IMG/VR virus record: IMGVR_UViG_3300037067_007554
Location: 25,508-89,507 of that record
Source: a virus
Taxonomy: Duplodnaviria; Caudoviricetes
Reading direction: 5' to 3' (one strand)
DNA length: 64,000 nucleotides
The notes under the pieces: model-generated
Told to the model about the DNA's origin: nothing
Database searches by the model: none
What the model saw: the letters and a program-made list of their open reading frames with translations, nothing else
In this document: positions 8,633-26,623 of the stretch, piece by piece
Layout of the letters: each line of letters begins with the position of its first letter
Position numbering within the stretch: position 1 is the stretch's first letter
Position numbers and translations under genes: made by a program

Positions 8633-8656
8633 GCTGTGCTCCCACCCAAAAGCTGG

Positions 8657-10677: not shown

Positions 10678-13389
10678 GTGAAGCCCATCGTTCACAAGCT
10701 GACTATCGACACCCTAATCCGCTCTGGCAAGAGTTGGCTACAGGGCAACGGCGTGACCGTGCGGAAGGTCGTGGCCTACTACCGCAAGGAGTACGGGCTG
10801 TCTTCCCATCGGGTGAGTCAACTCCGGCGGGGACTGGCGACGAGCTAGGCCCCTGACAACGTGCCGCCAGTGGAGTGCCACCGTGCCGTAGTGTGAGCCG
10901 GTGCGGAGGCTTTCCCCTTGCGTTTCCTTAGACCTGGAGGTGTGACCATGCTCAGCATGACGTGTGAGATTGTGCGCCGGCAAAATGCCCGGCGGGACGG
11001 CCGTTGTTTCCCCTCCCTCAAAACGGTGAGGGAGGCGTTCGAGAGCGACAGCCAGGAGGATGAGAACCGGGAGTACCAGGAGTTCGCCAGCCCGTACTGG
11101 GACCAGGCGAGGGGCATGAGTGACCTGTAGAGGTCCGTGCCGCCAATAGGACGTGATACACCGCCCCGTCAGCGTGTCTCGATACTCTCGCCGGGACGAC
11201 GGGGCGAGGTTTCGTGCCCTACCCATCCCTTGGACTGCGAGGTGTACCATGTGTCTCGGACTGACGTGCGGCCAGATAGCAGCCCTGTGGCGGGGTGGCA
11301 ACCAAGAGGCTGCACCGTACTTCATGGCGAGGTACGGGAGCAAACAGGACTGCTGCAAGGTGGTTCTGGAGGTGTGCCGCCAGGACGGACCGTACTCTGC
11401 GGACTGCTTTGTCCGGGAGTTGGAGAAGCAGTTGGCGCTCTTGGAGGAGAACGCCAGGATCAGCGTAGCGTAGTGCCGCCAGAGTAACCCTATTGGCCCC
11501 GGCTGGTAGGCGGGACTTCACGCCGTTGCGTTTTGCCGGCGGAATACCGATGCCGAGAGTTGAGGTTCGATTCCTCATTGGGCCACTTGTGTAGAGATGC
11601 CCACTCCCTGTGGCGGCCGGGGAGAGGGTCTTAGGTCCATGCCGCCAGCCCCCTACACAAGAGGTGTGCCTGTGCTACTCAACTGCCCCACAACTGCCGT
11701 AACCATCATCAACGCATCGCCGTTGCTCAAGACCTGCGATGAGGCCCAGGACCTCTGCGACCAGGTTGCTTCCTGGCTCTCGGGTGGCGAGAGTTACGAC
11801 CCGGAGTTCCTTGCGGAGAATCTCACGCAGATCGCCATGGACCTCCGACAGTCGATGCAGGAGGCCGTGGCCTGATTGTCGAGGTAGCCCACAAGACGTA
11901 GACTGCGGGGCGAACCTTGCCAGTGTCGTCGCTGGCCGCAGTCCTGTATCCCCATGCCGCCAGGGGGAAGTGGCGGTTCCTACTGAATGCCCTAGAGGCA
12001 GGAGGTATCGCAATGAGTCGTTACCAGATGAGCGATGGGACGGTTGTGGACACCAAGAACGCTACCGCATCGTGGGGTGAATCCACACGATGGGACGGCC
12101 ACAACCATATCAGCGTGGCCACCGGGAGCCAGTGGGAGCACCAGACTCTCTACCGCAGCCGCAAGGGCCGGTACTACGTCGAGCACACGAGCCGGCGGGA
12201 TGGCTCGACGCCTGGTGCCGAGTGGGTGAGTTTAGAAGAGGCTTGCCGATGGCTGCTGGCCAACGAGCACAGCCCCGAGGATGAAAACTTCCCCGAGGAT
12301 CTCAAGGACCACATCGACAAGGTGAGCGAGTAGACACCTCCCAGGAATGCCGGCGTACTGCCAGCCGCCGGCCCTCTGGTACATGTCATGCCCCAGAACG
12401 CTCCAGCAACGCCAGGATTGCGTCGGACGCTGGGCTGTCCAAGTAGACTTGTGCCGCCAAGACGCATTCCTGAGCGTCTGGATCAACGCTAGGGGCGACG
12501 TGTGAGAAAAGAATGCCCGATGGGCGACAGACTCGTATCGTCGTGCCGCCAGATTACCTAGAGTCCCTTACTGTGAGGTGTACGATGCTCGGTTACAGCG
12601 TGTGGTGTGCCTCAAGGGCATACCAAGAGGAGTACGACCAGACCAAACGGGTGGCCGCGTTCACGTTCCTGCTGGACGCCGTGGACTATGCCGCCAGTCT
12701 GGCGAGAAACAGCGTCCGCTGCGTGCTGATCGGCCCTTACGGGCTGGCAACTGAGTACGTGAGAGACGAGACCGATGGTTCCGGGTACACCATCCGGGAC
12801 GCCAACGGGCGGAAGTAGTGCAGTCAACAGGGGCAGGCAATGTCCTTTCGTGCTCTTTCGTGTCTTTTGCTGTCCTTTCGTGTCTTTTCGTGTCCTTTGT
12901 ACCCCTTGGAGGTGTGTGATGGCTGTCAAACGTAACCTGATTCCCCGTCCGGGTGAGGGCAAGGCGTTCGCCTATGCCTATCAGGCTGGGCGAGATTCGG
13001 TGGCTGAGTGAGCCGACCTGGCCGCCGCCCTCCTGGCCTAACCCGCCAGAGTGGGCAGCGAGCGGGCCGACTGAGTGCCCGTGGTCCCTTAGATGGAGGC
13101 GTGGAGGATGACCCCAACCAAAGCTATCGAACACACCGACGACATGATGGGAAAGTTGACGGCCCTGGTCGCCCACCTGCACAACGAAGCCGACGAGGTT
13201 GCCGAACAGTGGTACGGCCTCGGACAGGCTGGCGGACAACGGGAAGACCATGCCGCCAGCCTGTTGACCAGACTTCGCCCCCACTTGGAGGCAATCGAGA
13301 GCTTCGCCCATATCTGCGGACAGCAGATTACGGGCTACGTGAAAGACCCGTTCGGCCGACAGGCGGCGATGGAGGCTCCAACCGTCTGA
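10678..13389 (+). CDS. Eight small early-region genes, each with its own SD: 10678-10848, 10948-11130, 11249-11473, 11672-11875, 12013-12333, 12585-12818, 12919-13011, 13108-13389
   Basis: Each start is preceded by CCCT(T/A)..(G)GAGGT/GGAGG at normal spacing; functions unknown. Confidence 0.65.
12841..12900. repeat. Six tandem 10-bp units, consensus TGTCCTTTCG
   Basis: tgtcctttcg tgctctttcg tgtcttttgc tgtcctttcg tgtcttttcg tgtcctttgt. Confidence 0.85.
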
Positions 13390-13496
13390 CCCCCAGGGGC
13401 TTCGGCCCCGCTTCTACCCTCCTGCTGGGAGGGTGCAAGCGGCGTCAAAGTCCGGTTTTTCGACGAATCACGGCCCCTTGCAAAGGAGGTGTACCC

Positions 13497-13865
13497 TTGT
13501 CGCACATCGTCAGTATCAAGACCGAGGTCCGCGACCTGGCCGCCCTCATGGCTGCCTGTCAACGCCTCAAGTTACCCGCCCCCGTGGTCGGAGAGCACAA
13601 GCTGTTCTCTGGCACCAAGACGGGGGCAGCCGTCCAGTTGCCCGACTGGCAGTATCCCGTGGTCACCGACCTCGGAACCGGGGAGTTGTCCTACGACAAC
13701 TTCAACGGTCACTGGGGAGATCAGAAGCACCTGGACGCCCTAAAGCAAGCCTACGCCGTGGCCAAGGCCACCATCGAGGCCCGCAAGCATGGGCATCGGG
13801 TGAGCGAAGTCAAGCAAGCGGACGGCAGTGTCAAACTGACCATCCAGGTAGGAGGTGTGGCATGA
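13497..13865 (+). CDS. DUF1257 / Ycf35-like protein
   Basis: TTG start after GGAGGTGT; SHIVSIKTEVRD...YDNFNGHWG...QAYAVAKA..EARK.G. Confidence 0.8.
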   Translation: MSHIVSIKTEVRDLAALMAACQRLKLPAPVVGEHKLFSGTKTGAAVQLPDWQYPVVTDLGTGELSYDNFNGHWGDQKHLDALKQAYAVAKATIEARKHGHRVSEVKQADGSVKLTIQVGGVA

Positions 13866-14053
13866 GAACCATCGAAGTCCTAGTCAGCCCCACGGGCGAA
13901 GTCGTCGTCACCACCAAGGGTTTCAAGGGCAAGTCCTGTCAGGACGCTAGCCGCCAGCTTGAGAAGGCCCTGGGCGTTCGGCAGAGCGAGAAGCTGACGA
14001 CAGAGTACCACTGTGCCGCCAGCAGCACAACGCAGCAGGAGGCCCGGCAGTGA
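13862..14053 (+). CDS. DUF2997-like protein
   Basis: IEVLVSPTGEVVVTTKGFKGKSC..AS..LEKALG...EY. Confidence 0.8.
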   Translation: MRTIEVLVSPTGEVVVTTKGFKGKSCQDASRQLEKALGVRQSEKLTTEYHCAASSTTQQEARQ

Positions 14054-14292
14054 ACGTCATCATCGACCAGCAGGGCAACCTGCGAACGATCTACAACGAG
14101 GCCCTGGACCTGTCCGCCTGTGGAGAGGTGACTATCACCCGTGCCTCAAACGTGGAGTGGAGTCCTGGCATCGGATGGCACGCCTACATGGGCGAGCCTT
14201 TCAACATGGACGGCCCCGTCCTCGGCCCCTTCGCCAAGCGTAGCGAGGCGTTGGCGGCTGAGGTGGCGTTCATCGAGGAAAACGTGCTTTGA
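14050..14292 (+). CDS. Conserved hypothetical protein of the DUF1257/AAA module
   Basis: IY.EALDL...G...I.RAS.VE...GPVLGPF..RSEALAAEV. Confidence 0.7.
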   Translation: MNVIIDQQGNLRTIYNEALDLSACGEVTITRASNVEWSPGIGWHAYMGEPFNMDGPVLGPFAKRSEALAAEVAFIEENVL

Positions 14293-14366
14293 CAGTCACC
14301 AGACAGCCAGGGGTACGCCTGCTGTCCGTCCGGTCACTATCGAGTCCCCTTACGTGGAGGTGTGCC

Positions 14367-15842
14367 ATGCTTGGAGACGTGTTAGGGCAATACCTCGATG
14401 CCTGTTTTTCTGGAGTCTACGTCCAGTCGGCGGAGCACGAGGACGCGATCAGCGAGGTATCGGCCCTATGTCGATGCCGCCAGTGGCAATTGGCCGTGTG
14501 GGACATGGCCGGCGGCTTGCAGATGAACGGGCAGAGCAACCCGGACATGAAAGACCCGCTAGCTGTCCTGGCAAGCCTGCCTGCGATGGCACCGAACGGT
14601 GAAGGGTCCGCCGTCATGCTCCTCCGCAACTTTCATGCGTTCATGGACAACCCAGAGATCGTGGCAGAGATGTGCCGCCAGATCGAGGCCGGCAAGGTAC
14701 GGCGTACCTTCATCGTGGTCCTGTCGCCAGTGGTCAAGATCCCAGTGGAGTTGGAGAAACACTTCGTCGTGCTGGAGCACGAGTTGCCAGGACGAACAGA
14801 GCTTGAAGCCGTCGCCCGTGGCATCGCCACCCGAGAGGGCGAGATGCCCGAGGGTTCCGACCTGGACAAGTTGCTCGATGCCTCCGCTGGCCTGACCCGG
14901 ATGGAAGCCGAGGGGGCGTTCTCGCTGAGTCTGGTACGGGATGGCAAGCTCCATCCGGAGAGCGTGTGGGAACTGAAATCAGGAATGCTCAAGAAGACTG
15001 GTTGCCTGTCGCTGTACCACGGTACGGAGAGTTTCTCCGAGTTGGGAGGACTGGACAACCTGAAGGCTTTTACCTTCCGCGCGATTACCAGAAGCAAGGA
15101 AAAGGTACGCCCCAAGGGCGTCATGCTGCTGGGAGTGTACGGAACCGGCAAGTCGGCTTTTGCCAAGGCACTCGGTGCCGAAGTCGGCAGGCCAACCCTG
15201 GTCCTCACAAGCGAGCAAATCAAGACCTCGGCCTATGGCAAGAGCGAGGAGTTGATGGCCAAGTCCCTGAAGATTGCAGACATGATGGCCCCCTGCATCC
15301 TGTTTGTTGACGAGATTGAGGGACTTCTGGCTGGAGTGAACAAGGCTGGTGACCCTGGCGTAAGCAAGTCAATCGGAAAGGTGTTCTCAATCTGGTTGAC
15401 TGACCACACCTCGGACGTTTTCGTCGTCGCCACCAGCAACGACATTTCCGACCTGCCAGGAGAGTTCACCCGTGCTGGTCGATTCGATGCCGTGTTCTTC
15501 GTGGACACGCCAGGCCGTGACCAGCGTGACATGATTTGGAAGATTCACGAGAAGAAGTACGGCATCGAGCCACAGGATCGCCCGGATGATACAAACTGGA
15601 CTGGGGCGGAAATTGAGAGTGCCTGTCGGCTGAGTGCCTTGCTGGACGTTCCCTTGGTGGCGGCGGCAGACAACGTGGTGCCTGTGGTTGTAACGCAGGC
15701 AGAGAAGATTGAGGCCATGAGGCAGTTTGCCGCAGGGCGTTGTCTGAATGCCGAGGCTACGGGTCGCTATCAGCGGGATGGCCAGCCAGTGGCTCGCCGC
15801 AACATCGAACGTGGTCCCACCACACAGCCGAGTACCAACTGA
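14367..15842 (+). CDS. Ycf46-like AAA+ ATPase
   Basis: Degenerate N-terminal AAA domain, then GVYGTGKS, Walker B LFVDEIE, ATSND, second-region-of-homology RAGRFD. Confidence 0.85.
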   Translation: MLGDVLGQYLDACFSGVYVQSAEHEDAISEVSALCRCRQWQLAVWDMAGGLQMNGQSNPDMKDPLAVLASLPAMAPNGEGSAVMLLRNFHAFMDNPEIVAEMCRQIEAGKVRRTFIVVLSPVVKIPVELEKHFVVLEHELPGRTELEAVARGIATREGEMPEGSDLDKLLDASAGLTRMEAEGAFSLSLVRDGKLHPESVWELKSGMLKKTGCLSLYHGTESFSELGGLDNLKAFTFRAITRSKEKVRPKGVMLLGVYGTGKSAFAKALGAEVGRPTLVLTSEQIKTSAYGKSEELMAKSLKIADMMAPCILFVDEIEGLLAGVNKAGDPGVSKSIGKVFSIWLTDHTSDVFVVATSNDISDLPGEFTRAGRFDAVFFVDTPGRDQRDMIWKIHEKKYGIEPQDRPDDTNWTGAEIESACRLSALLDVPLVAAADNVVPVVVTQAEKIEAMRQFAAGRCLNAEATGRYQRDGQPVARRNIERGPTTQPSTN

Positions 15843-15854
15843 GGAGAAAAACCC

Positions 15855-15919
15855 TTTACAAGTGCAGCGGTTATGGTAGAATGCGAGCGGCCCAGTTGGA
15901 GCTGGGCCGCTCTGAACAC
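15855..15919 (+). promoter_or_regulatory. sigma70-type promoter plus 11-bp hairpin heading HNH gene 1
   Basis: TTTACA-16-TAGAAT (extended TG), then GAGCGGCCCAG/CTGGGCCGCTC. Confidence 0.7.
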
Positions 15920-15944
15920 AAGCAACCTATGAAGGAGGTCGCTC

Positions 15945-16697
15945 ATGTCTGATGATGATTCTACCATCCCCCGTGGCTTCTGCCAGTGTGGCTGTGGACA
16001 AAGGACCAACCTGTACAAATCCACACGATGTCAACTCGGCCAGTTCAAGGGAGAGCCCCGCCCCTATATGCGGGGGCACCACAACCGAGCCCGAAAGCAA
16101 ACACAGCAAATCGGATTTGAAGAGGGACTCCGGCGTGGTGCAGAAATGCCCCCTCTGCCAAATGTCACTGGAGTTGAGATTAGGCCCATCCCGGAATTTC
16201 CGGGGTACGCCATTGGTGACGATGGCACCGTATGGGGATGCCGCCACGCCTGGGGATTTCACAACTGCTGGCACTGCTTAGTCCCCTATTGGTATGGTCG
16301 TCACAACAAGGTTAAGTATCTCGTCGTTGGTCTGCGTGCAACTGGAGCGAAGAAAAGAAAGAGGACGCTTGTGCACATCCTCGTCTTGTCAGTCTTTCGC
16401 GGACCGAAGCCCACTGGACAAGAAACCCGCCATTTGGATGGACACCCTGACAACAACAGGCTCAGTAACCTTGTCTGGGGAACGTCCCTGGATAATACCG
16501 CAGACAAGATCAAGCACGGTCACGACTATTTCAAACCAGGTCAAGACCATCCCCAAGCGAAACTGACCACAGAGGCCGTTCTGGCCATCCGAAGTGACAG
16601 CCAAGCGAACTACAACGAGCTAGCCCTCAAATACGGGGTCTCGCCGTCACTGATTAGCCTTGTAAAGAAACGGAGGGCATGGAAGCATTTGCCGTGA
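15945..16697 (+). CDS. Free-standing HNH homing endonuclease (CxCGCG N-terminus, NUMOD4-like, HNH, C-terminal HTH)
   Basis: RPIPEFPGYAIGDDG; VHILVL..F.GPKP...TRHLDG.PDNNRLSNL.W.T..DN. Confidence 0.88.
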   Translation: MSDDDSTIPRGFCQCGCGQRTNLYKSTRCQLGQFKGEPRPYMRGHHNRARKQTQQIGFEEGLRRGAEMPPLPNVTGVEIRPIPEFPGYAIGDDGTVWGCRHAWGFHNCWHCLVPYWYGRHNKVKYLVVGLRATGAKKRKRTLVHILVLSVFRGPKPTGQETRHLDGHPDNNRLSNLVWGTSLDNTADKIKHGHDYFKPGQDHPQAKLTTEAVLAIRSDSQANYNELALKYGVSPSLISLVKKRRAWKHLP

Positions 16698-16800
16698 ACT
16701 AGGTCGGGTGACACGACCCGAGCCCGAGTCCTCTGGATGGCCAGAGGGCCGGCACCCTGGCCGTTTGACCTGGGAACCCTAACCCTTTTGGAGGTGTACC

Positions 16801-17739
16801 ATGAGCGAGTTCGTCAATGCGTCAGACCGTGCCACCAGCCCCCGTGAGCGGCTGGAAGTCGAGTTCCTCGCAACCCGTGTGTCCTTCACTTGGCTGGGCG
16901 TTCGCCGGGCATTGGACCGGGAGCAAACAGCCCAGGCGGCCGAGTCCTTCGGCGCCGAGGGGCAGTTTTTGTCGGCAGCAAAAAAGCTGCTGGACACGAA
17001 GCACCCGGCGTACAAAGCCGTGAGCAAGGTCAAGAGCCAGGCGGGAGGCTTTTGGAAGGGGATGAGCCTGCCCTTCCCGGAGCCCGGTCTGCGGCTGATC
17101 CGGCAGGAGGATCTGGACGGGTTCGAGTCTCGGATGGCCGGCTTCCGCCAGGCCCTCAACACGAACGTCGAAGCCCTTGACCAGGTGTTCTGGGAGTTGA
17201 AGGACAACGCCCGGCAGAAGTCGGGCCGCCTCTACAACTCCAGCGATCTGCCGGACAGCGTGCTCGGTGCCTTCTCCATCGACTGGAGCCTTGAGAACGT
17301 CGCCCCCCCGGACTATCTTCTGACTCTGCGGCCGGACCTGTACGAGCGGGAAGCCGCCCGGATTCGTGGCCAGTTCGAGCAGGCGGTAGTCCTGGCAGAG
17401 CAAGGATTCATCGCCGAGTTTCGCAAGCTGGTCGCCCACCTGACGGAGATGCTGACCGACAGCCCGGACGGCAAGCCCCGGCAATTCAAGAGCGCCTCGG
17501 TGGACAACCTCAAGGAGTTCTTCGAGCAGTTCAAGCGGCTGAGCGTGAGCGACAACGCCGACCTGGCGGAGTTGGTCGGCAAGGCCCAGAACCTCGTCAA
17601 CGGGGTCAGTGCCGAGGCGTTGACCAACTACGACGTGCTCCGCCAGTTCGTCGGCGGCGAGATGGGCAAGGTACAGCAGAGTCTTGACAGCATGATCGTT
17701 GACCGCCCCCGTCGCAACATCGTTAGAAAGGCACGGTGA
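16801..17739 (+). CDS. DUF3150-like coiled-coil protein of the Ycf46 module
   Basis: RVSFTWLGVRR.L..EQ.AQAA..FGAEG.FLSA.KKLLDT.HPA; ends DRPRRNI. Confidence 0.7.
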   Translation: MSEFVNASDRATSPRERLEVEFLATRVSFTWLGVRRALDREQTAQAAESFGAEGQFLSAAKKLLDTKHPAYKAVSKVKSQAGGFWKGMSLPFPEPGLRLIRQEDLDGFESRMAGFRQALNTNVEALDQVFWELKDNARQKSGRLYNSSDLPDSVLGAFSIDWSLENVAPPDYLLTLRPDLYEREAARIRGQFEQAVVLAEQGFIAEFRKLVAHLTEMLTDSPDGKPRQFKSASVDNLKEFFEQFKRLSVSDNADLAELVGKAQNLVNGVSAEALTNYDVLRQFVGGEMGKVQQSLDSMIVDRPRRNIVRKAR

Positions 17740-17743
17740 GCCC

Positions 17744-17827
17744 ATGAAACGCCTTACTCTCCACGTAGCGATGCTTGCCGTCCTCGTCGGCGTGCTGTAC
17801 CTGCACTGGATTGCGATGGTGCGGTGA
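17744..17827 (+). CDS. Small single-TM peptide (27 aa)
   Basis: MKRLTLHVAMLAVLVGVLYLHWIAMVR. Confidence 0.4.
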   Translation: MKRLTLHVAMLAVLVGVLYLHWIAMVR

Positions 17828-17941
17828 CTTCCTACGCCTCCGTGGGAGAAGCACGGGGGCGAAATGAGTTCACCCTCAAACACACCTCCCCAGTCTGCCG
17901 TCCCTGGGTCAACAAAGGGCGGCAGGAAAGGAAAGAACGAC

Positions 17942-18310
17942 ATGGGATTAGACCTTACTGTGTGCCCCGTCAGCTATTTCAAGCAAGACTCATGGCTGTG
18001 CTATGACCGTCTCGGCCTCAACCGCAACTACGAACTCTTCGCACAAATTGACGAGGAGAAATCCCGTATGCCCGCCATCGAAGCGGTGTGCGATCCCAAG
18101 GATATTCCCCAGGGTAAGCGTGTCCACTGGTATGGAGACGATGGGCTAAAAACCATTACGGAAGACCCCTACGGATGCGGACTGACCTACGTGGACGCCC
18201 GTGAGTTTGCCAACGTCGAGCCCGGAGAGACAGGCGACTGGAACAAGGCCGTGCTTGCATTCCTCAAGGCCCTGCCGCCAGAGACGCCGATTGTGCTCTG
18301 GTGGCACTAG
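17942..18310 (+). CDS. Hypothetical protein
   Basis: MGLDL...DPYG..LT...FL.ALP...IVLWWH. Confidence 0.7.
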   Translation: MGLDLTVCPVSYFKQDSWLCYDRLGLNRNYELFAQIDEEKSRMPAIEAVCDPKDIPQGKRVHWYGDDGLKTITEDPYGCGLTYVDAREFANVEPGETGDWNKAVLAFLKALPPETPIVLWWH

Positions 18311-18511: not shown

Positions 18512-18540
18512 TTGACATACCGCCAGCATTTGACTAGGCT
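18512..18540 (+). promoter_or_regulatory. sigma70-type promoter
   Basis: TTGACA-17-TAGGCT. Confidence 0.55.
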
Positions 18541-19029
18541 TATCAACGGTGTTGGGTTGTCGGCCCAGCACCCAAGAACCTCTGAAGGTGCAAAGCAACA
18601 ATGCCAACAGCAACGCCACAAGGTTTCAGGCCAGCCCGTTATCCCGTGTGCCGTCAGGCACCAAAAAGGGCGCTGCCCGTTGAGTCGGGAAAAGGCGATG
18701 CCGCCAGTAAGGTTGCTGAGGACGTGCCCCCATCGGCACGGTGGCAAAGTGGGGTATCCAGCCCCCGAGGAAAGCCCGGCAACGGCACCGGGCAGGCCGA
18801 CCGACGCTCACACAAAATCCCGGCAACGCTGGCCCAATTGCGCCCGGGTGCTCATGCTGCTCTCAAAGGCAGTCCCAGAACGTCGGATCGGCACAGCCCA
18901 GTCAGCCAACATACTGACTGCCAATAGCTTCTCTCAGAGGCAAAATCAAGGCGCCCGCCCCCATGAGCGGAAAGGGGGCCGGTCTACTCTTCTATCAGCA
19001 ACCACGACCCTAACCCGTGAGGTGAGAGA

Positions 19030-19272: not shown

Positions 19273-19372
19273 CGTAGCCCCTGACCCGGCCTCTCGCTGA
19301 CAGCGATATGCCGCCAGCGAGTGAGCGGGCCAGTGTCCGTAACTTGCAACCCCTGGATTCGGAGGTGTGAAC

Positions 19373-19885
19373 GTGAGTTGCTTCGAGGTTGGATCAACAC
19401 ATATTGACGCCCTGCTGACTGCCGGGCTGAACGTCGGCCGTTACGGCCCCCTACGATGGTACGTTCCAAGCGACGACACGGAGGGCGACTATGAGCAAGG
19501 CGAGCCCTGGGGACCGGAGGCAATCAAGCACTACCAGCAACGGCGACGTGAGTTGACGGAGGAGACGGCCGGCATGGTAGGTGCCATGCTGGTTGCGGAG
19601 AACCGCCGCAGTGTTGATTACCGCTACGATGAGGCCGAGGAAGAGGAGCCCTACGTGTTCAACGCACTCCAAGGGCGCCCCGATCCCGTGGTTGTGCTGA
19701 AAGCAATCGCCTGCTATGAGTACCAGGCGTGCGAGACGCCGGACTGGGAGGAGTCCGAGGCGTATGCGTTCTGCCAGGCCCTCCGGCATCGCATGATCGG
19801 TGCCCTGCCGGGCTACGATGATGCCGATGGCTGGGAGGTCTCCGACCGGAGGGTGTTCCTGAAACAGGTCGGCGTTGTCCACTAG
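19373..19885 (+). CDS. Conserved mobile-element hypothetical protein (HIDALL..ENRRSVDYRY..CYEYQACE..LPGYD family)
   Basis: Motif recognition; GGAGGTGT SD. Confidence 0.75.
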   Translation: MSCFEVGSTHIDALLTAGLNVGRYGPLRWYVPSDDTEGDYEQGEPWGPEAIKHYQQRRRELTEETAGMVGAMLVAENRRSVDYRYDEAEEEEPYVFNALQGRPDPVVVLKAIACYEYQACETPDWEESEAYAFCQALRHRMIGALPGYDDADGWEVSDRRVFLKQVGVVH

Positions 19886-19973
19886 CCGATGGCTCGACAC
19901 GCCCCCTCATCGCCCAGTCTATCGAGGCTGGGCGAGGATGGTGTTTGTCCGCTAGCCCTTAGAGAGGTGCAAG

Positions 19974-21531
19974 ATGACTATTGAAATTATCCGACGTTAC
20001 ATCGAGGGGTCGTGCCAACAACAAGACGGCACCCTTGATACCGATGCCGCCAACAAGACACTTTGCCGGCTGACCCGAGCAGGTGACGAGGAAACCCGTC
20101 ATGCTGCCGGCCTGATGTGGTCCGCCTACTTAGCGTCAGACCTGTCAGAGCACGACGCCATGCTCCAGGTCATTCACGGAGTCTAGCGTTTACCCCATGT
20201 CCCTTAGAAGTGTCCCATGATTACGCAAGCAGTTCCCGACTACATGACCTTCCAATACTGGTACGACCTGCCAGTCAAACGGAAAAAGTGGCCCTACAAG
20301 AGCCTGGATGATTGGGTGGCGAGAAATCCAGGTCGGGCGGCAGGTGTTGCCCACTTCGCACCGCAGGTCGTTCGGTACTATACGAGTGGTACTTTTGGCC
20401 CAGGTGGAACCGGCGATGCAAACTGGCGTCCCATGGGGGCTCAACGGGAAATCACACTGGCTGAGTACCATGAGTTAGTTGAAACTCCACTTTGGGAACG
20501 TCCCGCAGTCATGCCCGTGTGGCGTGGTGCCACCGACCTGACGCCGATACGCAAGAATGGGAAGAAATCCAAGCCGATCAAGGTGAAGGTTGCCGCCGTC
20601 CACCAGGTCACAGCCGCTCGTTGCCAACCTGCGCCCATGCCGCCAGTGAAGCCGACCATCGAGCAGCGATACGCCAACTACTGCGGGGCGTGCTCGATGC
20701 TGGAGAAGCCCCCTGAGGACATGGGGGTGTGGATGCTACGGATGGCGGGGATGGGAGTGCTGTAGTTGCAGTACGTGAGACACGACAGTAGCTTACAGGA
20801 GTACCTTCCCGCCCCAGAGGGCTCTACGGAGCCCGAAGGGATGGAGAGTTACGAAACACCACTACACGAAAGGCGAGAACCATGCCCCTAAACCTGTACG
20901 AAGACTCAAAGGAAAATCGTGTGCTGTGTAACTGCTGTGCGGCCAGCCGTGGGCTGTGCAAGAACCGCCTGGACACTGCCGACGACGACGCCGAATGCGA
21001 GGACTGCGGGTTGAACGTCTTTGAGGAGCGGATCGCCGCTTGTGTTGAACAGGCGAAGGCGGCCGGATTCGAGGTGTTCACCAGCGATAACAAGCTCGTC
21101 GTACAGAAGCCGCTCCAAATCCAGAACCAAACGGCGGGATACGACAATCGAGCCGAAGCGGCCGGGCTGTAGCCGGTCCCCGCCCCGCCCGGCGAAGCAT
21201 TCAGCGGGGGCCGACAACTGAGCCCGAGTGACAACTAAGGAGGTGCGAAATGATGCACTGGCAATATGACGATGTGTATGGAAAGTATCTTGGTCATCCA
21301 ACGCCCTGCGTGGTGTTCCACGAGATCGACCCAGCCAGCGATCAACCCGGAAACGCCGGCATGGTCTGTGAGAACATCAGCCGGCCAGAATGGGGACACC
21401 TGATTGAAGCCGCCCCGCGAATGCTGGAGCGACTACGGGCGATCCTCACCGCCTACGACGCAAATGACAGCCACAGCGTCCGTGAGGAAATTGAGAATGC
21501 CCGCTCCATCGTCGCCAAGAACACCGTCTGA
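19974..21531 (+). CDS. Four hypothetical early genes: 19974-20186, 20217-20765, 20882-21172, 21250-21531
   Basis: SD-led ORFs; the last carries LIEAAPRMLERL, a common phage motif. Confidence 0.65.
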
Positions 21532-24500
21532 CGGTCCCCACCTCACCCCGGTGTGGCGCCCGGGGCCTGGCGGTGACCGTCAACGCGGGGGACAGACCTC
21601 CGCACTCGCCCGCTGAGTGAGCGGGAAAAAAAACGGGAGACGAGCCGTGAGAGTAACAATCGACGAACAGGGCCGCGGCCTGCAGATCCGACCAGGCGTG
21701 GACGTGGGCGCCTACGGTCTGGGCCTGGCTCCTGGGGATCGCGTCTGGGTGCCGCGAGCCCAAGCGTGGGGGCGAGTGGTGAGTATCGGGACCCGCATCG
21801 AGAGTGGGACGCCCGGCACCGGGCAAAGCAACCGCGTCCGAGGCGAGGTTGAGATCGAATCGTAGCGAGCCAACTCGCCCGCTGAGTGAGCGGGGCAAGG
21901 AGACGAGAGAGATGATTACTGATGAAAGAATCCGCGACATTTTGGCCCGCTGCACGGTGGACGGCAAACACACATCGGGCGGCGACGGCAAGCTGCCAGC
22001 GAAGGACCGGGGGTTCTGCCCGATCGACGGCGTGCCAGACGAGACAATCGGCGTGCAGCAAGTCCGCGATGCGATTTCCCGTGTGGTTGTGGACGGCCGC
22101 GATGATGATCGAGACATCCTCGACGCAATCGAGGCCGCCTACGATGTGGCGTGGCTCGATTTCTGCGCGCGAGAACATCCAGACTGGGTGCGATCCGCGG
22201 TGGATGACGTGTGCTTCACTGCCTCACTGTCCAACACCTAACGCCCCCAGGCACTCGCCCGGGAGACGCCGGGAAGAAGGAGATGAGACGATGAAATGGT
22301 ACGAGAAAAACGACGTGGTGGCTGAACTGGTCAAGCGATTCCCCGAAGCCGACCCCGGACCCGCAGGGCTGTGGGGATTCGTCAACGCAGGATGGGAGGG
22401 GCCAGTTGACGACAACGACCTGGACAACTGGGCCGAGGCGTGGAAAGACGCCGAGCAGGACTGGGCCGAGGCGTGGAAAGGCACCGGAGGCGGTTAGAAA
22501 CCACCCACCACCAAGCACTCGCCCGCAGAGTGGAGCGGGAAAAGGAAAGATGAGATGACGACCAAAGCGCAACTTGGAATCACCCCCGAGTTTTTGCGAT
22601 TCACGGATGCCGTAGCCTACCTGACGTGGTCTCTGAGCGGGCATCCCCCCTATCCCGCATCGGCGGCTCCGGGCCTGGCGGGGGAGGCGGTCGCCCTGCT
22701 GCCAGCATTTCGCCACTGGATGATCGCCAACGAGTGGGCAATGACGGAGGCTCAGCAACTCCGCGACATCCTCGACGTCCACCCGGAGTTGGGCTATTGG
22801 GACACGACGCCGATGTCGGCTGATGTGTTGCAGGCAATACGGATTTTTGAGTTGTCCCGAGACGATGCTGTCCGATTGCTGGGCGGCTCGCCGTAACCGC
22901 CGCAAGGCACTCGCCCGCAGAGAGGAGCGGGGCCGGCACCGGGTGACGAGGTGCAGGAGATGAGACCATGCGTAAGGTATACCGCACCGTGAAAGAGGCC
23001 CGCAACGCCCTCGCCCTGGACACCGGGTTTGACCCATTCCACACGGGCTACGTCAAAGGACGTTGCACCAAGATCGCTCTCGCGCGGCTCGGCTATCCGG
23101 TAGACAAGAAACTCGCGGAGCAACAGGCAGCCGAGCGGCGACGAAAGCTCCTGACGTCCGCAGAAGCAGAGAGCCTGCTCCGCCCAGTCGGCCGCTGTGC
23201 CAAGGGCCACATGTGGTCCGTGGACCAGCACGGGCGCGATTGCCCAGAGTGTGGCGGACCCGAGATCATGGATATGGAGTGTGACAACGGGCACAAATGG
23301 AAGGCCGCCTACAATGCCGGGCCTGAGTCCGATAAATGCCCAAAATGCGGAGAGTATTACGTGTAGCACGGTCCCCGCCTCGCCCTGGTACTGCCAGCCC
23401 GGGGCCTGGCGGTAACCGTCCGCGGTGGCGCATGACCTCCGCACTCGCCCGCAGAGTAAGTTGGAGCCAAAAAGGGGAGACGAGACGATGGACGCCACAC
23501 ATCATGGCATGACGATTCTCGCCGTGCGCGAGATTGAGACTGGACAAATCGAAACGTATGAATGTCTAAACTACGACACGGCGCGCGCTCGCAGCGGCCG
23601 ACCACGGCAACGATCCCGAGGACTGGGAGCCGGCGGAATCCGCTGAGTGATTTACGGGGTGAGAGACATGGGTAGGCCATCAAGAATATGGACACGTGCG
23701 CAACGACGACTGCTTGGTACTGTGCCCGATGCAGTCGCCGGCGCAAAACTCGGGTGCTGCGCCTCGACCGTCCGAAACTGGCGACGACGCTGGGGGATCG
23801 CCGGGTATTCCGAAGGTCCGCGTTGTACCGCCGTGACGAACGATGCGATCTTCGTTGGAATCTGGTGGTCGAGCGCGAATACTGAGGAGGTGGAAGTCCG
23901 CCTCAATCTCACCACGAGGCAGGTACGCAGCCAGAGCATCCGATTGCGCAGACATGGCGTGGTGCTAAAAGCGATGCCACGGCATCGGCGGCGCAAACCA
24001 ATTTTCTGACCTGCAAATTTCCTGAAACGAGACTCGCCCGCTGAGTGAGCGGGGCAAGGGCAAAAGGAAAACCAAACATGACTATGACGTTGTCCGACAT
24101 CCACTACAGGCTGAACACAATGCAGTCGAGCAAGCAGGCGTTCGACGTGCGAGATGAACTCATCGAGCTAACGCGGATCGTCAGCGACATGCACGCCGCG
24201 CTGGGCGACCTGTCGCGAAAGGTCGAAAGACTCACGGAAGCAGCGGCCAAAGCGTCTTGCCAATGCCCTCTGACTTAGCCCACGAAAACAGAGGTGAACC
24301 ATGCGAACGCGAGAAGAACTCCGCGAGTGGCTGTGCGGTGAGATCGTCGATGTCATGGACAGCTACGATTGCAATGAGGACTCTGCTCGGCAACACATTC
24401 GTGACATGCTCGTCGAGGGGCAGGACAGCTATAGCGACGTGACGGATGATGAGGTGCCGGTAGTGCTACGGCTAATTGAATCAGGAAGGAAAAGCGGCAA

Positions 24501-24619
24501 GAAGGGCAAGACCACCAAGCCCAAGAATCGGCACTCGTGGAATCGGAACTCGTGAAAGAATGTGAAGGAACTCAATACCAAGCACTCGCCCGGGAGAGCC
24601 GGGTAAAGGAGATGAGACG
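21531..24619 (+). repeat. Eight ACTCGCCCG-hairpin leader elements, each 5' of a small gene
   Basis: ACTCGCCCG at 21604, 21873, 22253, 22517, 22909, 23443, 24032, 24584; about 85-bp extended copies start at 21531 and 23368. Confidence 0.85.
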
Positions 24620-25009
24620 ATGAGGATACAAGAGACACGCCGACTGCGGCAGTATGCAGTCTGCCAAACAGCACAAATCCAGGCACCGATGCTGGACCGA
24701 CCCGTGACGCAACCAGAACACTGGAGTGACGAGGCGGCGGAAGCGGCCAAGCGAAGCGGCTATATCGTCTACTTTGCACTCGCAACCACTGGAGAGAGTC
24801 TCTGGGATTTCGAGCGATTCGCCCATGTCCCCATGGAGCACGCTCATCCCGTGGAGGTGCTCGACCACGTCCGAGCCTCAGCTCCGCCGTGGTGGGATGC
24901 AGACTCGGCAATCTACGCTTCGTATCGCGGAGGGCCTTGGTATCCGCGCGATTGGGATGAGGTTCTCGGAAAAATGGAAGTTCCACCCGCAATGGTAATC
25001 GACGAGTGA
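21647..25009 (+). CDS. Cassette-like small genes: 21647-21865, 21912-22241, 22291-22497, 22555-22896, 22968-23366, 23488-23646, 23668-24009 (HTH-like), 24078-24278, 24301-24555, 24620-25009
   Basis: Starts follow the repeat leader or GAGAYGAGAC/GAGGTG; proteins are unrelated to each other. Confidence 0.7.
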
Positions 25010-25066
25010 TAGGGCGTTGTCTCGGGTTGTTGGCAAGGGGATGCCGGATTCATGGGGATCGACTAG

Positions 25067-25497
25067 ATGACAAACTACCAAGAGAAACGGACCATCGAAT
25101 TGTTGGACAGCATGGCGGAATCTATCGTCATGGCGAAGCCCGGCGACCGCGATAGCTTCGTGAGGGCAGTCGCAATCCTGCACTACTTGATCTGGGAGTC
25201 CCGGAAGATTCTCGACCTGCCGGATTTCCCCGGCCTGGACCCCTTGTAAGGAAGTGCTACGGCTTATCCACTCAGGAAGGAAAAAGGAGTAATCACACTA
25301 TGACGAAATCTGATACGATCACAGTTACGCGATCAACGGACGAGGATGCCTCGGCCGTTGCCGCCCGCGCCGCGAAGAAAGCGGGGACGATGGTCGCCGG
25401 CAATTTGCGATGGTACGGTGCCAGGGGGCCAGCCTATCGAGAGGTACCCACGCGCGACGGCCGGACGGTCCGGGTCTGCGAGCCGATGGTCGATTAG
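25067..25497 (+). CDS. Two small hypothetical genes: 25067-25249, 25300-25497
   Basis: ORFs; AAGGAG SD before 25300. Confidence 0.55.
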
Positions 25498-25621
25498 TGG
25501 AATGTCGGCGGTTGCGTGGGCTTGCGTGTTAGTGTCGGTCAGTGTCGGTCAGGTCGGGCGGAACCGGTCCGCAGAGAATCGCTCGGGTATACGAAAACAC
25601 GTAGGTTTGTCCCATCCCTAC

Positions 25622-25649
25622 TTGACAGATGGTTCGCCGGTAGTACAAT
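25622..25649 (+). promoter_or_regulatory. sigma70-type promoter
   Basis: TTGACA-16-TACAAT. Confidence 0.65.
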
Positions 25650-25680
25650 AGCACGACCAGCCAACCAAGGAGCAAGTACC

Positions 25681-25869
25681 GTGGCTATTCTCGATGGCAA
25701 ACACGTACCGCCAGAAAACATTCGACCCTAGCGGCACCGACTCGTTGGCAAGTATCGGCCCCCTGAGCCGCCAATGGGGATGCCGCCAGCAATTGCCATT
25801 CCCCTCTACCATGCCGGCGTGTACGACGAGGCAGTCTACGTCAGCCAGACCAAGGAGCGAGTAAAATGA
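25681..25869 (+). pseudogene. 62-codon ORF with an internal TAG (25729-25731), or a 16-aa leader peptide
   Basis: AAGGAG plus GTG start; the frame continues past TAG to an ATGA overlap with 25866. Confidence 0.4.
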
Positions 25870-26132
25870 GTCCTAGACGACCCGACCCGCCGAGCCCAGG
25901 GCAAGAGTACATTGGCAGGCAGGGAATGTACGCGATACGTTCCCGCTATCCCGACCAGCAGACCGGCGACGAAGAGTTGATCTTTCCAGTCCGCGTTACG
26001 GCGGTGAAGAAACGGTTCGGGCGGCTGTACTTCTTCATCACGCCAGTCGGCGGGGAGAATCACTGGTGGGTCGAGGACAAGATGGTGAAGTTCTCCTGTT
26101 CGGACGAGCCTTCGACCAACGGGAAGGAATAG
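25866..26132 (+). CDS. Hypothetical protein
   Basis: AAGGAG SD; ORF. Confidence 0.65.
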   Translation: MSPRRPDPPSPGQEYIGRQGMYAIRSRYPDQQTGDEELIFPVRVTAVKKRFGRLYFFITPVGGENHWWVEDKMVKFSCSDEPSTNGKE

Positions 26133-26147
26133 GGCAATCCTTTGGAA

Positions 26148-26391
26148 GAATGATTCAAGAGCGAGGAAGTTGGGTAGGCTAAAACACGGCGACCGGCCAA
26201 GTCTGCAAATCGCTCAGAGAGCCGCTGGGCGAGAAACGGACGCAGTACGCCACCGGCTTGTTAATCCGGCAGTCCCAACTTTCTCGCTCTTGAATCAATC
26301 GCCCGGCTGCACTCGGGGAACTAAGGCCCTTAAAGGCTGATTGGCGCTACACACCTCGCGTCTCAGCTACCGTGCAGTCGGGCGTTTTTTT
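26148..26391 (+). ncRNA. Candidate structured RNA: two consecutive long stem-enclosed domains ending in T7
   Basis: 23-bp inverted repeat 26152-26174/26274-26296 and 13-bp inverted repeat 26300-26312/26372-26384, each with one G-U-compatible mismatch. Confidence 0.45.
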
Positions 26392-26401
26392 GGACCATCC
26401 G

Positions 26402-26623
26402 ATGCCAACTACACAAACATCCGCTGACCTCATGCCGCCAAAGGTGCCTCCTCTAGTTGCTACCAACTGGCCAGAAGACATCCAACGACTGGGCGATGCG
26501 ATTGCAAAGTTGTCGGTCGAAAAGGCTCAAGAGTTGAAGGCGTATTTGGAAAGTAAGAAGATCGTGACGCCGGCAAGGGTGACCGAATCATGCAACGGGA
26601 AAACAGCCCCATCCAACTCGTAA
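26402..26623 (+). CDS. Ribosomal protein bL12 (L7/L12) N-terminal-domain-like protein, no C-terminal domain
   Basis: WPEDIQRLGDAIAKLSVEKAQELKAYLE fits the W..DI..LGD.I..L....A.EL..YL pattern I recall for Planctomycete bL12 N-termini. Confidence 0.6.
   Translation: MPTTQTSADLMPPKVPPLVATNWPEDIQRLGDAIAKLSVEKAQELKAYLESKKIVTPARVTESCNGKTAPSNS

What the first reader, a model, noticed from the sequence alone, without database searches (positions are those of the whole stretch)
10861..26440. Strand-polarised RTGCCGCCA(G) motif saturating the early region: a possible Chi-mimic shield
Seen: 19 copies of RTGCCGCCA, all on the + strand, 13 of them in the first 3.9 kb (10861-14680) and thinning rightwards. 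By eye I found only two + strand copies in the rest of the window (about 28407 and 40209). Copies lie in intergenic gaps and, inside genes, in different reading frames (MPP, CRQ, AAS/AAN), so selection acts on DNA rather than protein. A rough i.i.d. estimate at about 60% GC gives about 0.25 copies per 15.6 kb. Established: RecBCD/AddAB are attenuated by oriented Chi sites (E. coli GCTGGTGG) read on the strand whose 3' end is at the break. Inference: the - strand reads (C)TGGCGGCAY, often GCTGGCGG, one base from E. coli Chi. The orientation fits an enzyme entering from a DNA end just left of the cluster, where an 850-bp non-coding gap (8.63-9.48 kb) sits. This suggests the first-injected DNA carries host Chi sites. 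Alternative: operator or loading sites for a phage protein. I do not know the Planctomycete Chi sequence.
Basis: partly seen in the sequence, partly recalled or inferred. Interest (0 to 1): 0.82.

Follow-up and report, generated by a model that had tools for sequence, protein, structure and literature searches.

The report
One-strand DNA word array, phage early arm
A probable Planctomycete phage has written the word (R)TGCCGCCA(G) about two dozen times into one DNA strand of its early gene block, and a related phage did the same independently, so it is a real directional signal, but whether it tames a host DNA-degrading enzyme (Chi-like) or docks a phage regulator remains open.

Summary
RTGCCGCCA occurs 22 times on the + strand and never on the - strand. 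That holds for the window and for the whole 89.5-kb virus record. Markov models of order 1-5 expect about 1.4-3.5 copies per strand. TGCCGCCA is the most frequent octamer of the genome.

All enriched copies lie at window 10861-28881. They start about 1.5 kb to the right of a 730-bp, 48% GC gap full of iteron-like repeats, and they thin rightwards. A related phage contig (L006) has the core GCCGCCAG 19:1 in the syntenic block, with the same left-dense gradient and at non-homologous codons. A closer relative (L003) lacks it.

The Chi reading fits the phage-side pattern and has a 2025 precedent in phages LLS and MD8. It gained no host support. Five sampled Planctomycete genomes lack RecC and have AddB-like genes. 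The word shows no marked replication-strand skew in three genomes, one of them a lysogen of a relative.

I rank an oriented, sense-strand protein-binding array (stoperator-like) slightly first at 0.33, and a Chi-like signal second at 0.27.

This scan has reported similar polar words in early operons of other, unrelated phages.

The parts
8633..9483 (.). Non-coding gap to the left of the motif-bearing block. It is 48% GC and holds inverted AAGGATGCCAA repeats (8657-8820) and about 7 TGTAGTCAnTG iteron-like repeats (9061-9275). GC skew switches sign here. A RepA-like AAA_25 helicase gene (7580-8632) abuts it.
10239..10595 (+). Conserved 118-aa gene, homologous to the first + gene of L006 and to a gene of L003. 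It marks the syntenic start of the block. It carries no motif copy here; the L006 homologue carries one.
10861..10870 (+). GTGCCGCCAG; intergenic, 87 nt before the ATG at 10948
11137..11146 (+). GTGCCGCCAA; intergenic, 112 nt before the ATG at 11249
11374..11383 (+). GTGCCGCCAG; inside ORF 11249-11473
11473..11482 (+). GTGCCGCCAG; overlaps the stop codon of ORF 11249-11473, just before the tRNA-like element 11496-11586
11639..11648 (+). ATGCCGCCAG; intergenic, 33 nt before the GTG at 11672. An inverted TGGCGGC lies at 11611-11617.
11954..11963 (+). ATGCCGCCAG; intergenic, 59 nt before the ATG at 12013
12451..12460 (+). GTGCCGCCAA; intergenic, 134 nt before the ATG at 12585
12543..12552 (+). 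GTGCCGCCAG; intergenic, 42 nt before the ATG at 12585
12688..12697 (+). ATGCCGCCAG; inside ORF 12585-12818
13250..13259 (+). ATGCCGCCAG; inside ORF 13108-13389
13949..13957 (+). AGCCGCCAG; variant copy (core GCCGCCAG) inside the DUF2997-like ORF
14013..14022 (+). GTGCCGCCAG; 37 nt before the start at 14050
14474..14483 (+). ATGCCGCCAG inside the AAA+ gene, read as Cys-Arg-Gln. It was created at variable codons next to the conserved Cys-Arg.
14672..14681 (+). GTGCCGCCAG inside the AAA+ gene (Met-Cys-Arg-Gln-Ile). The same 15 nt occur in L003.
16238..16247 (+). ATGCCGCCAC inside the HNH endonuclease gene
18272..18281 (+). CTGCCGCCAG; variant copy inside ORF 17942-18310
18698..18707 (+). ATGCCGCCAG in the roughly 700-bp non-coding island 18313-19028
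19308..19317 (+). ATGCCGCCAG; intergenic, 65 nt before the GTG at 19373
20044..20053 (+). ATGCCGCCAA inside ORF 19974-20186
20637..20646 (+). ATGCCGCCAG inside ORF 20217-20765
25765..25789 (+). GAGCCGCCAA followed by ATGCCGCCAG, two copies 15 nt apart. They are intergenic, 86 nt before the ATG at 25866 and about 130 nt after the best sigma-70-like promoter match (25622-25649).
26432..26441 (+). ATGCCGCCAA; possible true start codon of the small bL12-NTD-like ORF
28406..28415 (+). ATGCCGCCAG; 345 nt beyond the serine recombinase stop codon (28061), in the convergent zone
28873..28881 (+). AGCCGCCAG; last copy of the array, antisense inside the first well-scoring convergent - strand gene (28805-29290)
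26961..28061 (+). Serine recombinase gene that closes the + block. It is the only protein detectably shared by all three motif-bearing elements (this phage, L006 and the G388 prophage) in the DNA held here.

Best explanation
The copies of (TA-N5-)RTGCCGCCAG form an array of asymmetric docking sites for a sequence-specific protein of this phage lineage, whose identity is unknown. The sites all face the direction of transcription of the early + strand operon.

By analogy with the operator and 'stoperator' sites of Cluster A mycobacteriophages, a monomeric regulator bound at these sites would block or modulate RNA polymerase coming from the control region at 8.6-9.5 kb. That would keep the early block (10.9-28 kb) silent or timed, for example in the lysogen. 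The densest barrier sits right behind the first three genes.

Shown here: strong selection for the word at the nucleic-acid level; strict polarity; sense-strand orientation in three related elements; a bipartite extension of the site; lineage-specific flanks; and no comparable signal in sampled host-phylum genomes.

Inferred only: that a protein binds the sites, that it is phage-encoded, and that its effect is on transcription.
For: 1. The array is perfectly polar and lies on the sense strand of the only operon that carries it: 22:0 and 19:1 in this phage, and 19:1 in L006.

2. In the G388 prophage, a distant relative (MCP 37-38% identical), TGCCGCCAGA occurs 4 times in 2.5 kb, again in sense orientation. 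Two copies, plus an inverted half-copy, sit in one intergenic region upstream of a + ORF. One copy sits between a stop codon and an intrinsic terminator. This is an operator-like layout.

3. In this phage the site is bipartite: A at -8 in 17/24 copies, T at -9 in 12/24, R at -2 and T at -1. The two parts lie about one helical turn apart, as for a two-domain monomer on successive major grooves (PMC9283540).

4. The flanks differ between relatives around one core. This phage has RT-core, L006 has (G)A-core-G, and G388 has T-core-GA. This fits a co-evolving reader better than one shared host enzyme.

5. About half of the copies in this phage are intergenic. Seven of the first 11 are intergenic where 37% of the DNA is non-coding, and they lie 33-134 nt before start codons.

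6. The word is neither markedly skewed nor consistently enriched in Planctomycete genomes, including the lysogen G388.

7. The array starts just downstream of a repeat-rich control region in both phages.
Against: No reader protein was identified. Nothing in the DNA held here is shared only by the motif-bearing elements except a serine recombinase.

In L006 the copies show no intergenic preference: about 4 of 20 are intergenic where about 16% of the DNA is non-coding. Three copies sit inside one 1.5-kb gene.

Unlike stoperators, the sites are absent from the other (- strand) operons, with 0 of 62 kb in the matching orientation.

One + copy in each phage lies inside the first convergent - strand gene (28873 here, L006 16752). 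This fits a DNA-level polarity that ignores gene direction.

The density, one per 250-300 bp at the left end, is 4-6 times that of L5 stoperators. The left-dense gradient is not required by this model.

No operator copy lies in the gap itself, and no -35/-10 partner was found.
Confidence: 0.33

Rival explanations
1. Chi-like shield. The - strand word 5'-CTGGCGGC(AY)-3' is recognised by the host's AddAB-type helicase-nuclease when it enters from a double-strand end to the left of the array. That end could be an injected terminus, or the tail end of rolling-circle replication started in the ori-like gap. Recognition switches the enzyme from degradation to recombination and so protects the DNA to the right.
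For: The pattern matches the known Chi-rich phages. The word is the most frequent octamer of the genome. Its polarity is nearly perfect. It clusters with a gradient from one side in both phages: 13 copies in 3.8 kb and then sparser here, and 12 copies in 3.0 kb and then sparser in L006. Compare LLS (20:3, clustered at one end) and MD8 (32:0) in PMC12315714.

Copies sit in all reading frames and inside conserved genes. They were made by both synonymous and non-synonymous changes at non-homologous codons.

One copy in each phage runs on into the first convergent gene.

The orientation is what is expected for an end at the gap. The gap has iterons, an adjacent RepA-like helicase gene and a GC-skew switch.

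AddB-like genes are present in 5 of 5 sampled Planctomycete genomes.

The patchy presence among relatives (L003 lacks it) is typical of Chi-rich phages.
Against: There is no host support. CTGGCGGC is 49-54% on the leading strand in G001 (z -0.6 to 1.7; 584 copies sampled). In the lysogen G388 it is 55-59%, against a same-composition mean of 53-56%, while a control word (CGGGGAAG) reaches 54:8. Orientation is mixed along 290-kb and 795-kb contigs of G124, the genome richest in the word. The word is not consistently enriched over its reversed form in 201 genomes.

RecC is absent, so the likeness to E. coli Chi is probably coincidental.

The phage has its own RecT and YqaJ exonuclease, whereas known Chi-rich phages lack a Rec module.

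The array starts 1.4-2.2 kb from the gap and leaves three genes unprotected.

The flanks differ between phages, and the A at -8 is unexplained.

A genome end at the gap is not shown.
Confidence: 0.27
2. RNA-level tag. The word is read in the early transcripts (RUGCCGCCAG) by a sequence-specific RNA-binding protein or endoribonuclease. This would time the decay or translation of early mRNAs, as T4 RegB does at GGAG.
For: The word is on the sense strand in three elements. Copies lie in leaders, coding regions and a 3' UTR. The array is confined to one transcription unit with no internal consensus promoters and only weak terminator-like matches on the + strand.
Against: The motif has no preferred RNA structural context. 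Its mean pairing probability is 0.68 against 0.66 for controls, and 0.75 against 0.73 in L006. Copies extend into convergent antisense genes (28873 here, L006 16752). No candidate RNase or RNA-binding gene was recognised. The left-dense gradient is not explained.
Confidence: 0.12
3. Replication-linked polar sites. The copies are loading or priming sites on the + strand, which is the lagging or displaced strand for a fork leaving the ori-like gap rightwards. They would be read by a phage replication protein.
For: The array begins next to an iteron-rich gap with an adjacent RepA-like helicase gene. GC skew turns positive there. The polarity and gradient run from that point and are largely independent of gene structure in L006.
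Against: No primase or loader with 8-10-nt specificity is known, and none was identified here. The sites have no hairpin context. The array is limited to 18 kb of an 89.5-kb genome.
Confidence: 0.08
4. Strand-specific nick sites. One of the phage HNH endonucleases would nick one strand at the word, as with the localised single-strand interruptions of T5-like, phiKMV-like and LUZ24-like phages. This comparison rests on my own knowledge and was not checked in the library.
For: All copies lie on one strand.
Against: No HNH gene was seen in the 21 kb of L006 held here, although the array is present. The clustering in one operon and the sense-strand rule are unexplained.
Confidence: 0.05
5. Antisense to ribosomal RNA. 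RUGCCGCCAG can pair over 10 positions, two of them wobble pairs, with 16S rRNA nt 36-45, which read (C/U)UGGCGGCGU. Abundant early transcripts might then interfere with nascent 16S folding.
For: The complementary segment is present in all six 16S genes read from five Planctomycete genomes.
Against: An 8-mer match to a 1.5-kb RNA has a chance probability of about 2-5%. The L006 flanks (A at -1) do not extend the pairing. The segment is buried in helix 4 of mature 30S subunits (my own knowledge). Copies show no single-stranded bias.
Confidence: 0.02

Closest known systems
Operator and stoperator arrays of Cluster A mycobacteriophages (L5 gp71, TipsytheTRex repressor; PMC9283540)
   Same: More than 20 asymmetric sites dispersed over kilobases. 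Their orientation is tied to the direction of transcription. The phage is temperate. The site can be contacted in two parts by one monomer. The consensus drifts between related phages around a conserved core.
   Different: The core here is 8-10 bp (17 bp with the distal TA) rather than 13 bp. The sites are confined to one operon instead of both arms. Many lie inside genes, especially in L006. The density is 4-6 times higher at the left end. No repressor homologue was found, and the sequence and host phylum are unrelated.
Oriented, terminally clustered Chi sites of phages LLS, P1 and Pseudomonas phage MD8 (Zheng et al. 2025, PMC12315714)
   Same: The most frequent octamer of the genome. Nearly all copies in one orientation. 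Concentrated towards one side. Copies inside genes in any frame. Patchy among close relatives. The G-rich strand reads CTGGCGG, close to GCTGGTGG and GCTGGCGC.
   Different: The host enzyme would be AddAB-type, because RecC was not found. The word is not markedly skewed or consistently enriched in sampled Planctomycete genomes, including a lysogen. The phage has RecT and an exonuclease. No genome end is known next to the array. The site has extra conserved flanks.
T4 RegB endoribonuclease targets (GGAG in early mRNAs)
   Same: A short sense-strand word enriched in early transcripts. (This comparison rests on my own knowledge.)
   Different: RegB sites are 4 nt long and sit in Shine-Dalgarno regions. 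Here the word is 8-10 nt, mostly away from ribosome-binding sites, and no RNase was identified.
Phage-specific promoters, for example the GGCAATAAG...GTG element seen 26 times in IMG/VR contig L162
   Same: A dispersed, one-strand, over-represented word in a phage gene block.
   Different: Promoters keep a position relative to gene starts and follow terminators. The present word has no -35/-10 partner, no fixed distance to start codons, and occurs repeatedly inside long genes.

Membership tests
Chi sites (RecBCD/AddAB attenuator) | Recognised by the host helicase-nuclease, which then changes activity | not testable with these tools
   This needs the host enzyme. It was shown only that AddB-like genes exist in 5 of 5 sampled Planctomycete genomes and that RecC is absent.
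Chi sites (RecBCD/AddAB attenuator) | Over-represented in the host chromosome | tested here: inconclusive
   The true host is unknown. The ratio to the reversed word is 0.7-1.9 for the 8-mer in G001-G005, 1.15 in the lysogen G388, and 0.04-10 for the 9-mer across 201 genomes.
Chi sites (RecBCD/AddAB attenuator) | Strongly co-oriented with replication in the host chromosome | tested here: not met
   G001 49-54% (z -0.6 to 1.7). G388 55-59% against a class mean of 53-56%; the 7-mer CTGGCGG is 62% (z 2.2), while the control CGGGGAAG is 54:8. G124 shows mixed orientation on large contigs. Caveat: none of these genomes is known to be the host.
Chi-rich phages (LLS/MD8 type) | Most frequent octamer, nearly all in one orientation, clustered towards one side | tested here: met
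   TGCCGCCA 25:0 is the top octamer. GCCGCCAG is the top octamer in L006. Both arrays are left-dense.
Chi-rich phages (LLS/MD8 type) | No phage recombination module | tested here: not met
   RecT (52766-53929) and a YqaJ exonuclease (53926-54852) are present.
Chi-rich phages (LLS/MD8 type) | The array faces a physical DNA end | tested here: inconclusive
   The record has no terminal repeat. The terminase has no family or phage match. The neighbouring gap looks ori- or operator-like.
Stoperator/operator arrays (Cluster A mycobacteriophages) | Asymmetric sites whose orientation follows transcription | tested here: met
   All copies are on the sense strand of the + operon here and in L006. They are also sense-oriented in the G388 prophage.
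Stoperator/operator arrays (Cluster A mycobacteriophages) | Located in promoters and short intergenic spaces | tested here: inconclusive
   In this phage about half are intergenic (7 of the first 11, with 37% non-coding DNA). In L006 about 4 of 20 are intergenic, with about 16% non-coding DNA.
Stoperator/operator arrays (Cluster A mycobacteriophages) | Sites in all lytic operons of both arms | tested here: not met
   There are no - strand copies in the 62 kb of - strand genes.
Stoperator/operator arrays (Cluster A mycobacteriophages) | A cognate monomeric HTH + stoperator-domain repressor | tested here: inconclusive
   About 55 ORFs were scanned against Pfam and/or PHROGs (not every ORF in both), and the first gene after the gap was sent to the Atlas. 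No repressor-like hit appeared. Many small ORFs remain unscanned, and the Cluster A repressor itself was not used as a query.
Phage promoters | Fixed position upstream of genes, with partner elements | tested here: not met
   Distances to the next start codon range from 16 to more than 1400 nt. There is no conserved -35/-10 partner. Three copies lie inside the L006 AAA gene.
DNA uptake sequences (DUS/USS) | Saturate the host genome on both strands | tested here: not met
   The word is not enriched in sampled genomes, and the phage array is on one strand only. The 9-of-11 likeness to the Neisseria AT-DUS is recalled from memory and is treated as coincidence.

The most novel reading that the evidence does not exclude
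The word is neither a host Chi nor a repressor site. It would be a new kind of directional 'track' signal laid down from the ori-like gap and read by a phage-encoded machine that moves or assembles along the DNA. Examples would be a loader or priming factor on the strand displaced by the RepA-like helicase, or a protector of replication tails that is independent of host Chi. Similar polar words in the early arms of unrelated uncultured phages, reported earlier in this scan, would then be dialects of one undescribed system.
Probability: 0.1. Interest if true: 0.8.

Novelty: new variant of a known kind. Interest (0 to 1): 0.55.

Why it matters
Phages of Planctomycetes are almost unstudied. No Chi sequence, repressor system or early-gene control element is known for that phylum.

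This array is a clean, strongly selected and directional cis signal. It is shared by at least two related phages, with traces in a prophage inside a Planctomycete genome. It therefore gives a direct experimental handle, whichever reading is right:
- If it is Chi-like, it would be the first AddAB control sequence for the phylum. It would extend the 2025 finding that some phages hoard Chi to a phage that carries its own recombinase.
- If it is a roadblock array, it would show that stoperator-type silencing evolved outside the actinobacteriophages.

Polar words in early arms keep turning up in unrelated uncultured phages in this scan, so solving one case would probably explain many.

Tried and rejected
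Promoter reading. Rejected: there is no -35/-10 partner out to +/-50 nt, no fixed distance to start codons, and repeated copies lie inside long genes. Sigma-70-like sites in the region are no more frequent than in shuffles.

RNA structure element. Rejected: pairing probability equals that of controls, and Rfam found nothing in the window.

tRNA 3'-end (GCCA) mimic. Not pursued: the only tRNA-like element (11496-11586) does not end in the word.

Codon or protein artefact. Rejected: all frames are used, and in the AAA gene the word arose at non-homologous codons by synonymous (CCG to CCA) and non-synonymous changes.

Repeat spread by duplication. Rejected: the flanks are unrelated.

Search for more relatives carrying the array. 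None of the following has it:
- 69 IMG/VR loci with the AAA gene
- 35 IMG/VR and 80 metagenome loci with the 118-aa gene
- 3 bacterial loci
- the INPHARED phage collection

Most other 'polar octamers' in those loci were coding tandem repeats or iterons.

Avoidance outside the array. Suggestive only: GCCGCCAG is 0 observed against 2.3-5.6 expected, but 21% of same-composition words also have zero copies.

Packaging type from the terminase. There was no family match and no phage match.

Read-based mapping of termini.

Whole-record counts for the L006 and L003 contigs. These records are not held.

Identifying a reader protein. The Pfam, PHROGs and Atlas searches were uninformative.

Full report
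**1. What is there**

The window is the last 64 kb of an 89,507-bp single-contig virus record.

An exact search finds 22 RTGCCGCCA, all on the + strand. Dinucleotide shuffles give a mean of 1.76. Genome-wide counts are as follows:

| Word | + strand | - strand |
|---|---|---|
| RTGCCGCCA | 22 | 0 |
| TGCCGCCA | 25 | 0 |
| TGCCGCCAG | 17 | 0 |
| GCCGCCAG | 19 | 1 |

Markov models of order 1-5 expect about 1.4-3.5 RTGCCGCCA per strand for the whole genome. Inside window 10.8-28.9 kb, GCCGCCAG is 19 observed against 0.6-1.4 expected. TGCCGCCA is the most frequent octamer of the whole genome.

One-mismatch variants are also biased, 19(+):6(-) within the array.

**2. Anatomy**

My codon-score gene calls give three blocks:
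- a - strand structural block at genome 0.8-26.7 kb
- a + strand block at window 1268-28061
- a - strand block at window 28029-63908

The word is absent from the first 9.6 kb of the + block, which is 54% GC. It begins abruptly at 10861.

Just to the left lies a non-coding gap (8633-9363/9483) with these features:
- It is 48% GC.
- It holds inverted AAGGATGCCAA repeats and about seven TGTAGTCAnTG iteron-like repeats.
- A RepA-like AAA_25 helicase gene sits immediately upstream.
- GC skew changes sign here.

Density falls rightwards:

| Segment | Copies |
|---|---|
| 10861-14681 | 13 |
| up to 20646 | 5 (6 with the CTGCCGCCAG variant at 18272) |
| 20.7-25.7 kb | 0 |
| up to 28881 | 3 RTGCCGCCA (5 with the variants at 25765 and 28873) |

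The empty segment at 20.7-25.7 kb is occupied by ACTCGCCCG-hairpin cassettes.

In-gene copies use all three frames. About half are intergenic, 33-134 nt before start codons that carry a GAGGT Shine-Dalgarno sequence.

The flanks carry no -35/-10-like partner. In this phage they do show A at -8 (17/24), T at -9 (12/24), R at -2 and T at -1. The full site is therefore TA-N5-RTGCCGCCAG.

The motif has no RNA-structure bias. Rfam finds nothing in the window.

**3. Relatives**

The AAA+ (Ycf46-like) gene inside the array has 52-56% identical homologues all over the Planctomycetota. This supports a Planctomycete host.

Two metagenomic phage contigs share the block architecture: a 118-aa gene, small genes, DUF2997, the AAA gene, a 312-aa gene and a serine recombinase, followed by convergent genes.

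L006 (AAA 56% identical):
- It carries GCCGCCAG 19:1 between positions 7427 and 16752.
- The array starts 122 nt into the first + gene, behind a 0.9-kb non-coding gap.
- It shows the same left-dense gradient.
- Its flanks differ: (G)A before the core and G after it.

L003 (AAA 63% identical) has no enrichment and no other polar word.

In the AAA gene the word sits at different codons in the two phages. It was made by a synonymous CCG to CCA change, by Glu to Gln, and by replacing three variable residues. This shows independent positive selection on the nucleotide word.

No other array was found in 184 further loci or in the phage collection.

A search of 401 Planctomycetota genomes with the capsid protein found one prophage (G388:C22, about 200-255 kb; MCP 37-38% identical). 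It carries TGCCGCCAGA four times in 2.5 kb, all in sense orientation. Two copies lie in one intergenic region with an inverted half-copy. One lies between a stop codon and an intrinsic terminator.

**4. Testing the Chi reading**

*Phage side.* The pattern is what Zheng et al. (2025) describe for Chi-rich phages. LLS has 23 Chi, 20 in the active orientation and half of them at one end. MD8 has 32:0. In both, Chi is the top octamer. The polarity is also right for an enzyme entering from the left, including the tail end of rolling-circle replication started in the gap and moving rightwards.

*Host side.* The tests gave no support:
- RecC is absent, and AddB-like genes are present, in five sampled genomes.
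- The 10-mer is not enriched against its reversed form. The 8-mer ratio is 0.7-1.9 and 1.15 in G388.
- Across 201 genomes the 9-mer ratio ranges from 0.04 to 10, consistent with codon and dinucleotide usage.
- I sampled 1.6 Mb of the closed G001 chromosome (1.58 Mb scored after dropping one CRISPR-bearing sample), with the origin set at about 4.35 Mb by GC skew. CTGGCGGC was 285-313 leading against 272-300 lagging.
- In 1.18 Mb of the lysogen G388, oriented by local GC skew, it was 55-59% on the G-rich strand. Same-composition words average 53-56%. The 7-mer CTGGCGG reaches 62% (z 2.2). A control word, CGGGGAAG, reaches 54:8.
- In G124, the genome richest in the word, orientation alternates along 290-kb and 795-kb contigs.

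The phage also has RecT and a YqaJ exonuclease, unlike the known Chi-rich phages.

None of these genomes is known to be the host. Chi is therefore weakened, not excluded.

**5. The alternative**

The best-documented other class of dispersed, asymmetric, transcription-oriented sites is the operator/stoperator array of Cluster A mycobacteriophages. More than 20 13-bp sites are bound by a monomeric two-domain repressor that stops RNA polymerase only in one orientation (PMC9283540).

These features fit that model better than a host enzyme:
- the sense-strand rule in three elements
- the bipartite site
- the lineage-specific flanks
- the operator-like layout in the G388 prophage
- the absence of a host-genome signal
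- the probable temperate lifestyle (serine recombinase, prophage relative)

These features count against it:
- no reader protein was found
- the sites are confined to one operon
- L006 copies show no intergenic preference
- the density is very high
- one copy in each phage lies inside the first convergent gene

**6. Verdict**

The array is real, strongly selected and directional. Its function is not settled. My estimates are:

| Reading | Probability |
|---|---|
| Oriented protein-docking (stoperator-like) array | 0.33 |
| Chi-like attenuator of an AddAB-type nuclease | 0.27 |
| RNA-level tag | 0.12 |
| Replication-linked polar sites | 0.08 |
| Nick sites | 0.05 |
| rRNA antisense | 0.02 |
| Something not yet conceived | remainder |

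Earlier notes of this scan describe similar polar words in early operons of unrelated phages. This is therefore a recurring and still unexplained class rather than a one-off.

Noticed in passing
window 11496-11586 (+): ARAGORN calls a tRNA-like gene with an undetermined 4-base anticodon (gcgt). It sits between two motif copies in the dense part of the array.
   Followed up: partly
window 21604-24584 (+), plus 52303 and 61058: ACTCGCCCG occurs 10:0 on the + strand. Eight copies head small-gene cassettes in exactly the 5-kb stretch that lacks the RTGCCGCCAG word, so the two arrays are mutually exclusive in space.
   Followed up: partly
window 8657-8820 and 9061-9275: There are two repeat families in the 48% GC gap: inverted AAGGATGCCAA/TTGGCATCCTT, and about seven TGTAGTCAnTG units at roughly 17-bp spacing. 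They look like an ori or operator region next to a RepA-like helicase gene.
   Followed up: partly
window 45980-47476, 49258-50184, 52766-54852 (-): The phage encodes a DnaB-type helicase, a Gad1-like (Gabija anti-defence) protein, and a RecT + YqaJ exonuclease pair.
   Followed up: partly
window 62085-62407: Dense CCGGCCCCG / CCGTAGCCG / CCCGGTCCCG hexanucleotide-periodic repeats lie on the + strand inside the 643-aa - strand ORF 60648-62579. This is probably a Gly-Pro-rich, collagen-like repeat protein.
   Followed up: no
G388:C22 about 200,000-255,000 (L283-L285): An integrated prophage in a Planctomycete MAG has capsid, portal, terminase and serine recombinase genes related to this phage (27-38% identity). 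It lacks the AAA module. It carries a mini-cluster of TGCCGCCAGA at 230018, 230054, 232127 and 232533.
   Followed up: partly
G388 (1.18 Mb sampled): The octamer CGGGGAAG (and GCGGGGAA) is strongly biased to the G-rich strand (54:8). It is a candidate KOPS-like architecture word for this Planctomycete.
   Followed up: no
G001:C1 about 1,373,652-1,393,651 (L303): A very large CRISPR array (about 250 repeats ending in GTGGATTGAAAC) lies in the Tepidisphaeraceae chromosome. It dominated the raw skew ranking until it was removed.
   Followed up: no
L162 (IMGVR_UViG_3300025706_000001), whole 21-kb locus: GGCAATAAG-N5-GTG occurs 26:0, mostly directly after T-rich terminator tails. This is a textbook phage-specific promoter array, and it served as a contrast to the present word.
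   Followed up: partly
L184 10336-10565: Ten TGCGGCCG iterons lie within 230 bp, directly downstream of the homologue of the 118-aa gene in an unrelated IMG/VR phage.
   Followed up: no
16S rRNA genes L091-L096, nt 36-45: The segment (C/U)UGGCGGCGU is complementary to RUGCCGCCAG, with two wobble pairs. The E. coli 5S rRNA 5' end also contains CUGGCGGC (recalled from memory). This is probably coincidence.
   Followed up: partly
window 13497-17739: The DUF1257-DUF2997-small protein-Ycf46-like AAA-312-aa module has 45-56% identical, syntenic counterparts in bacterial Planctomycete loci (L007, L008, L010). It looks like a host-derived module.
   Followed up: partly
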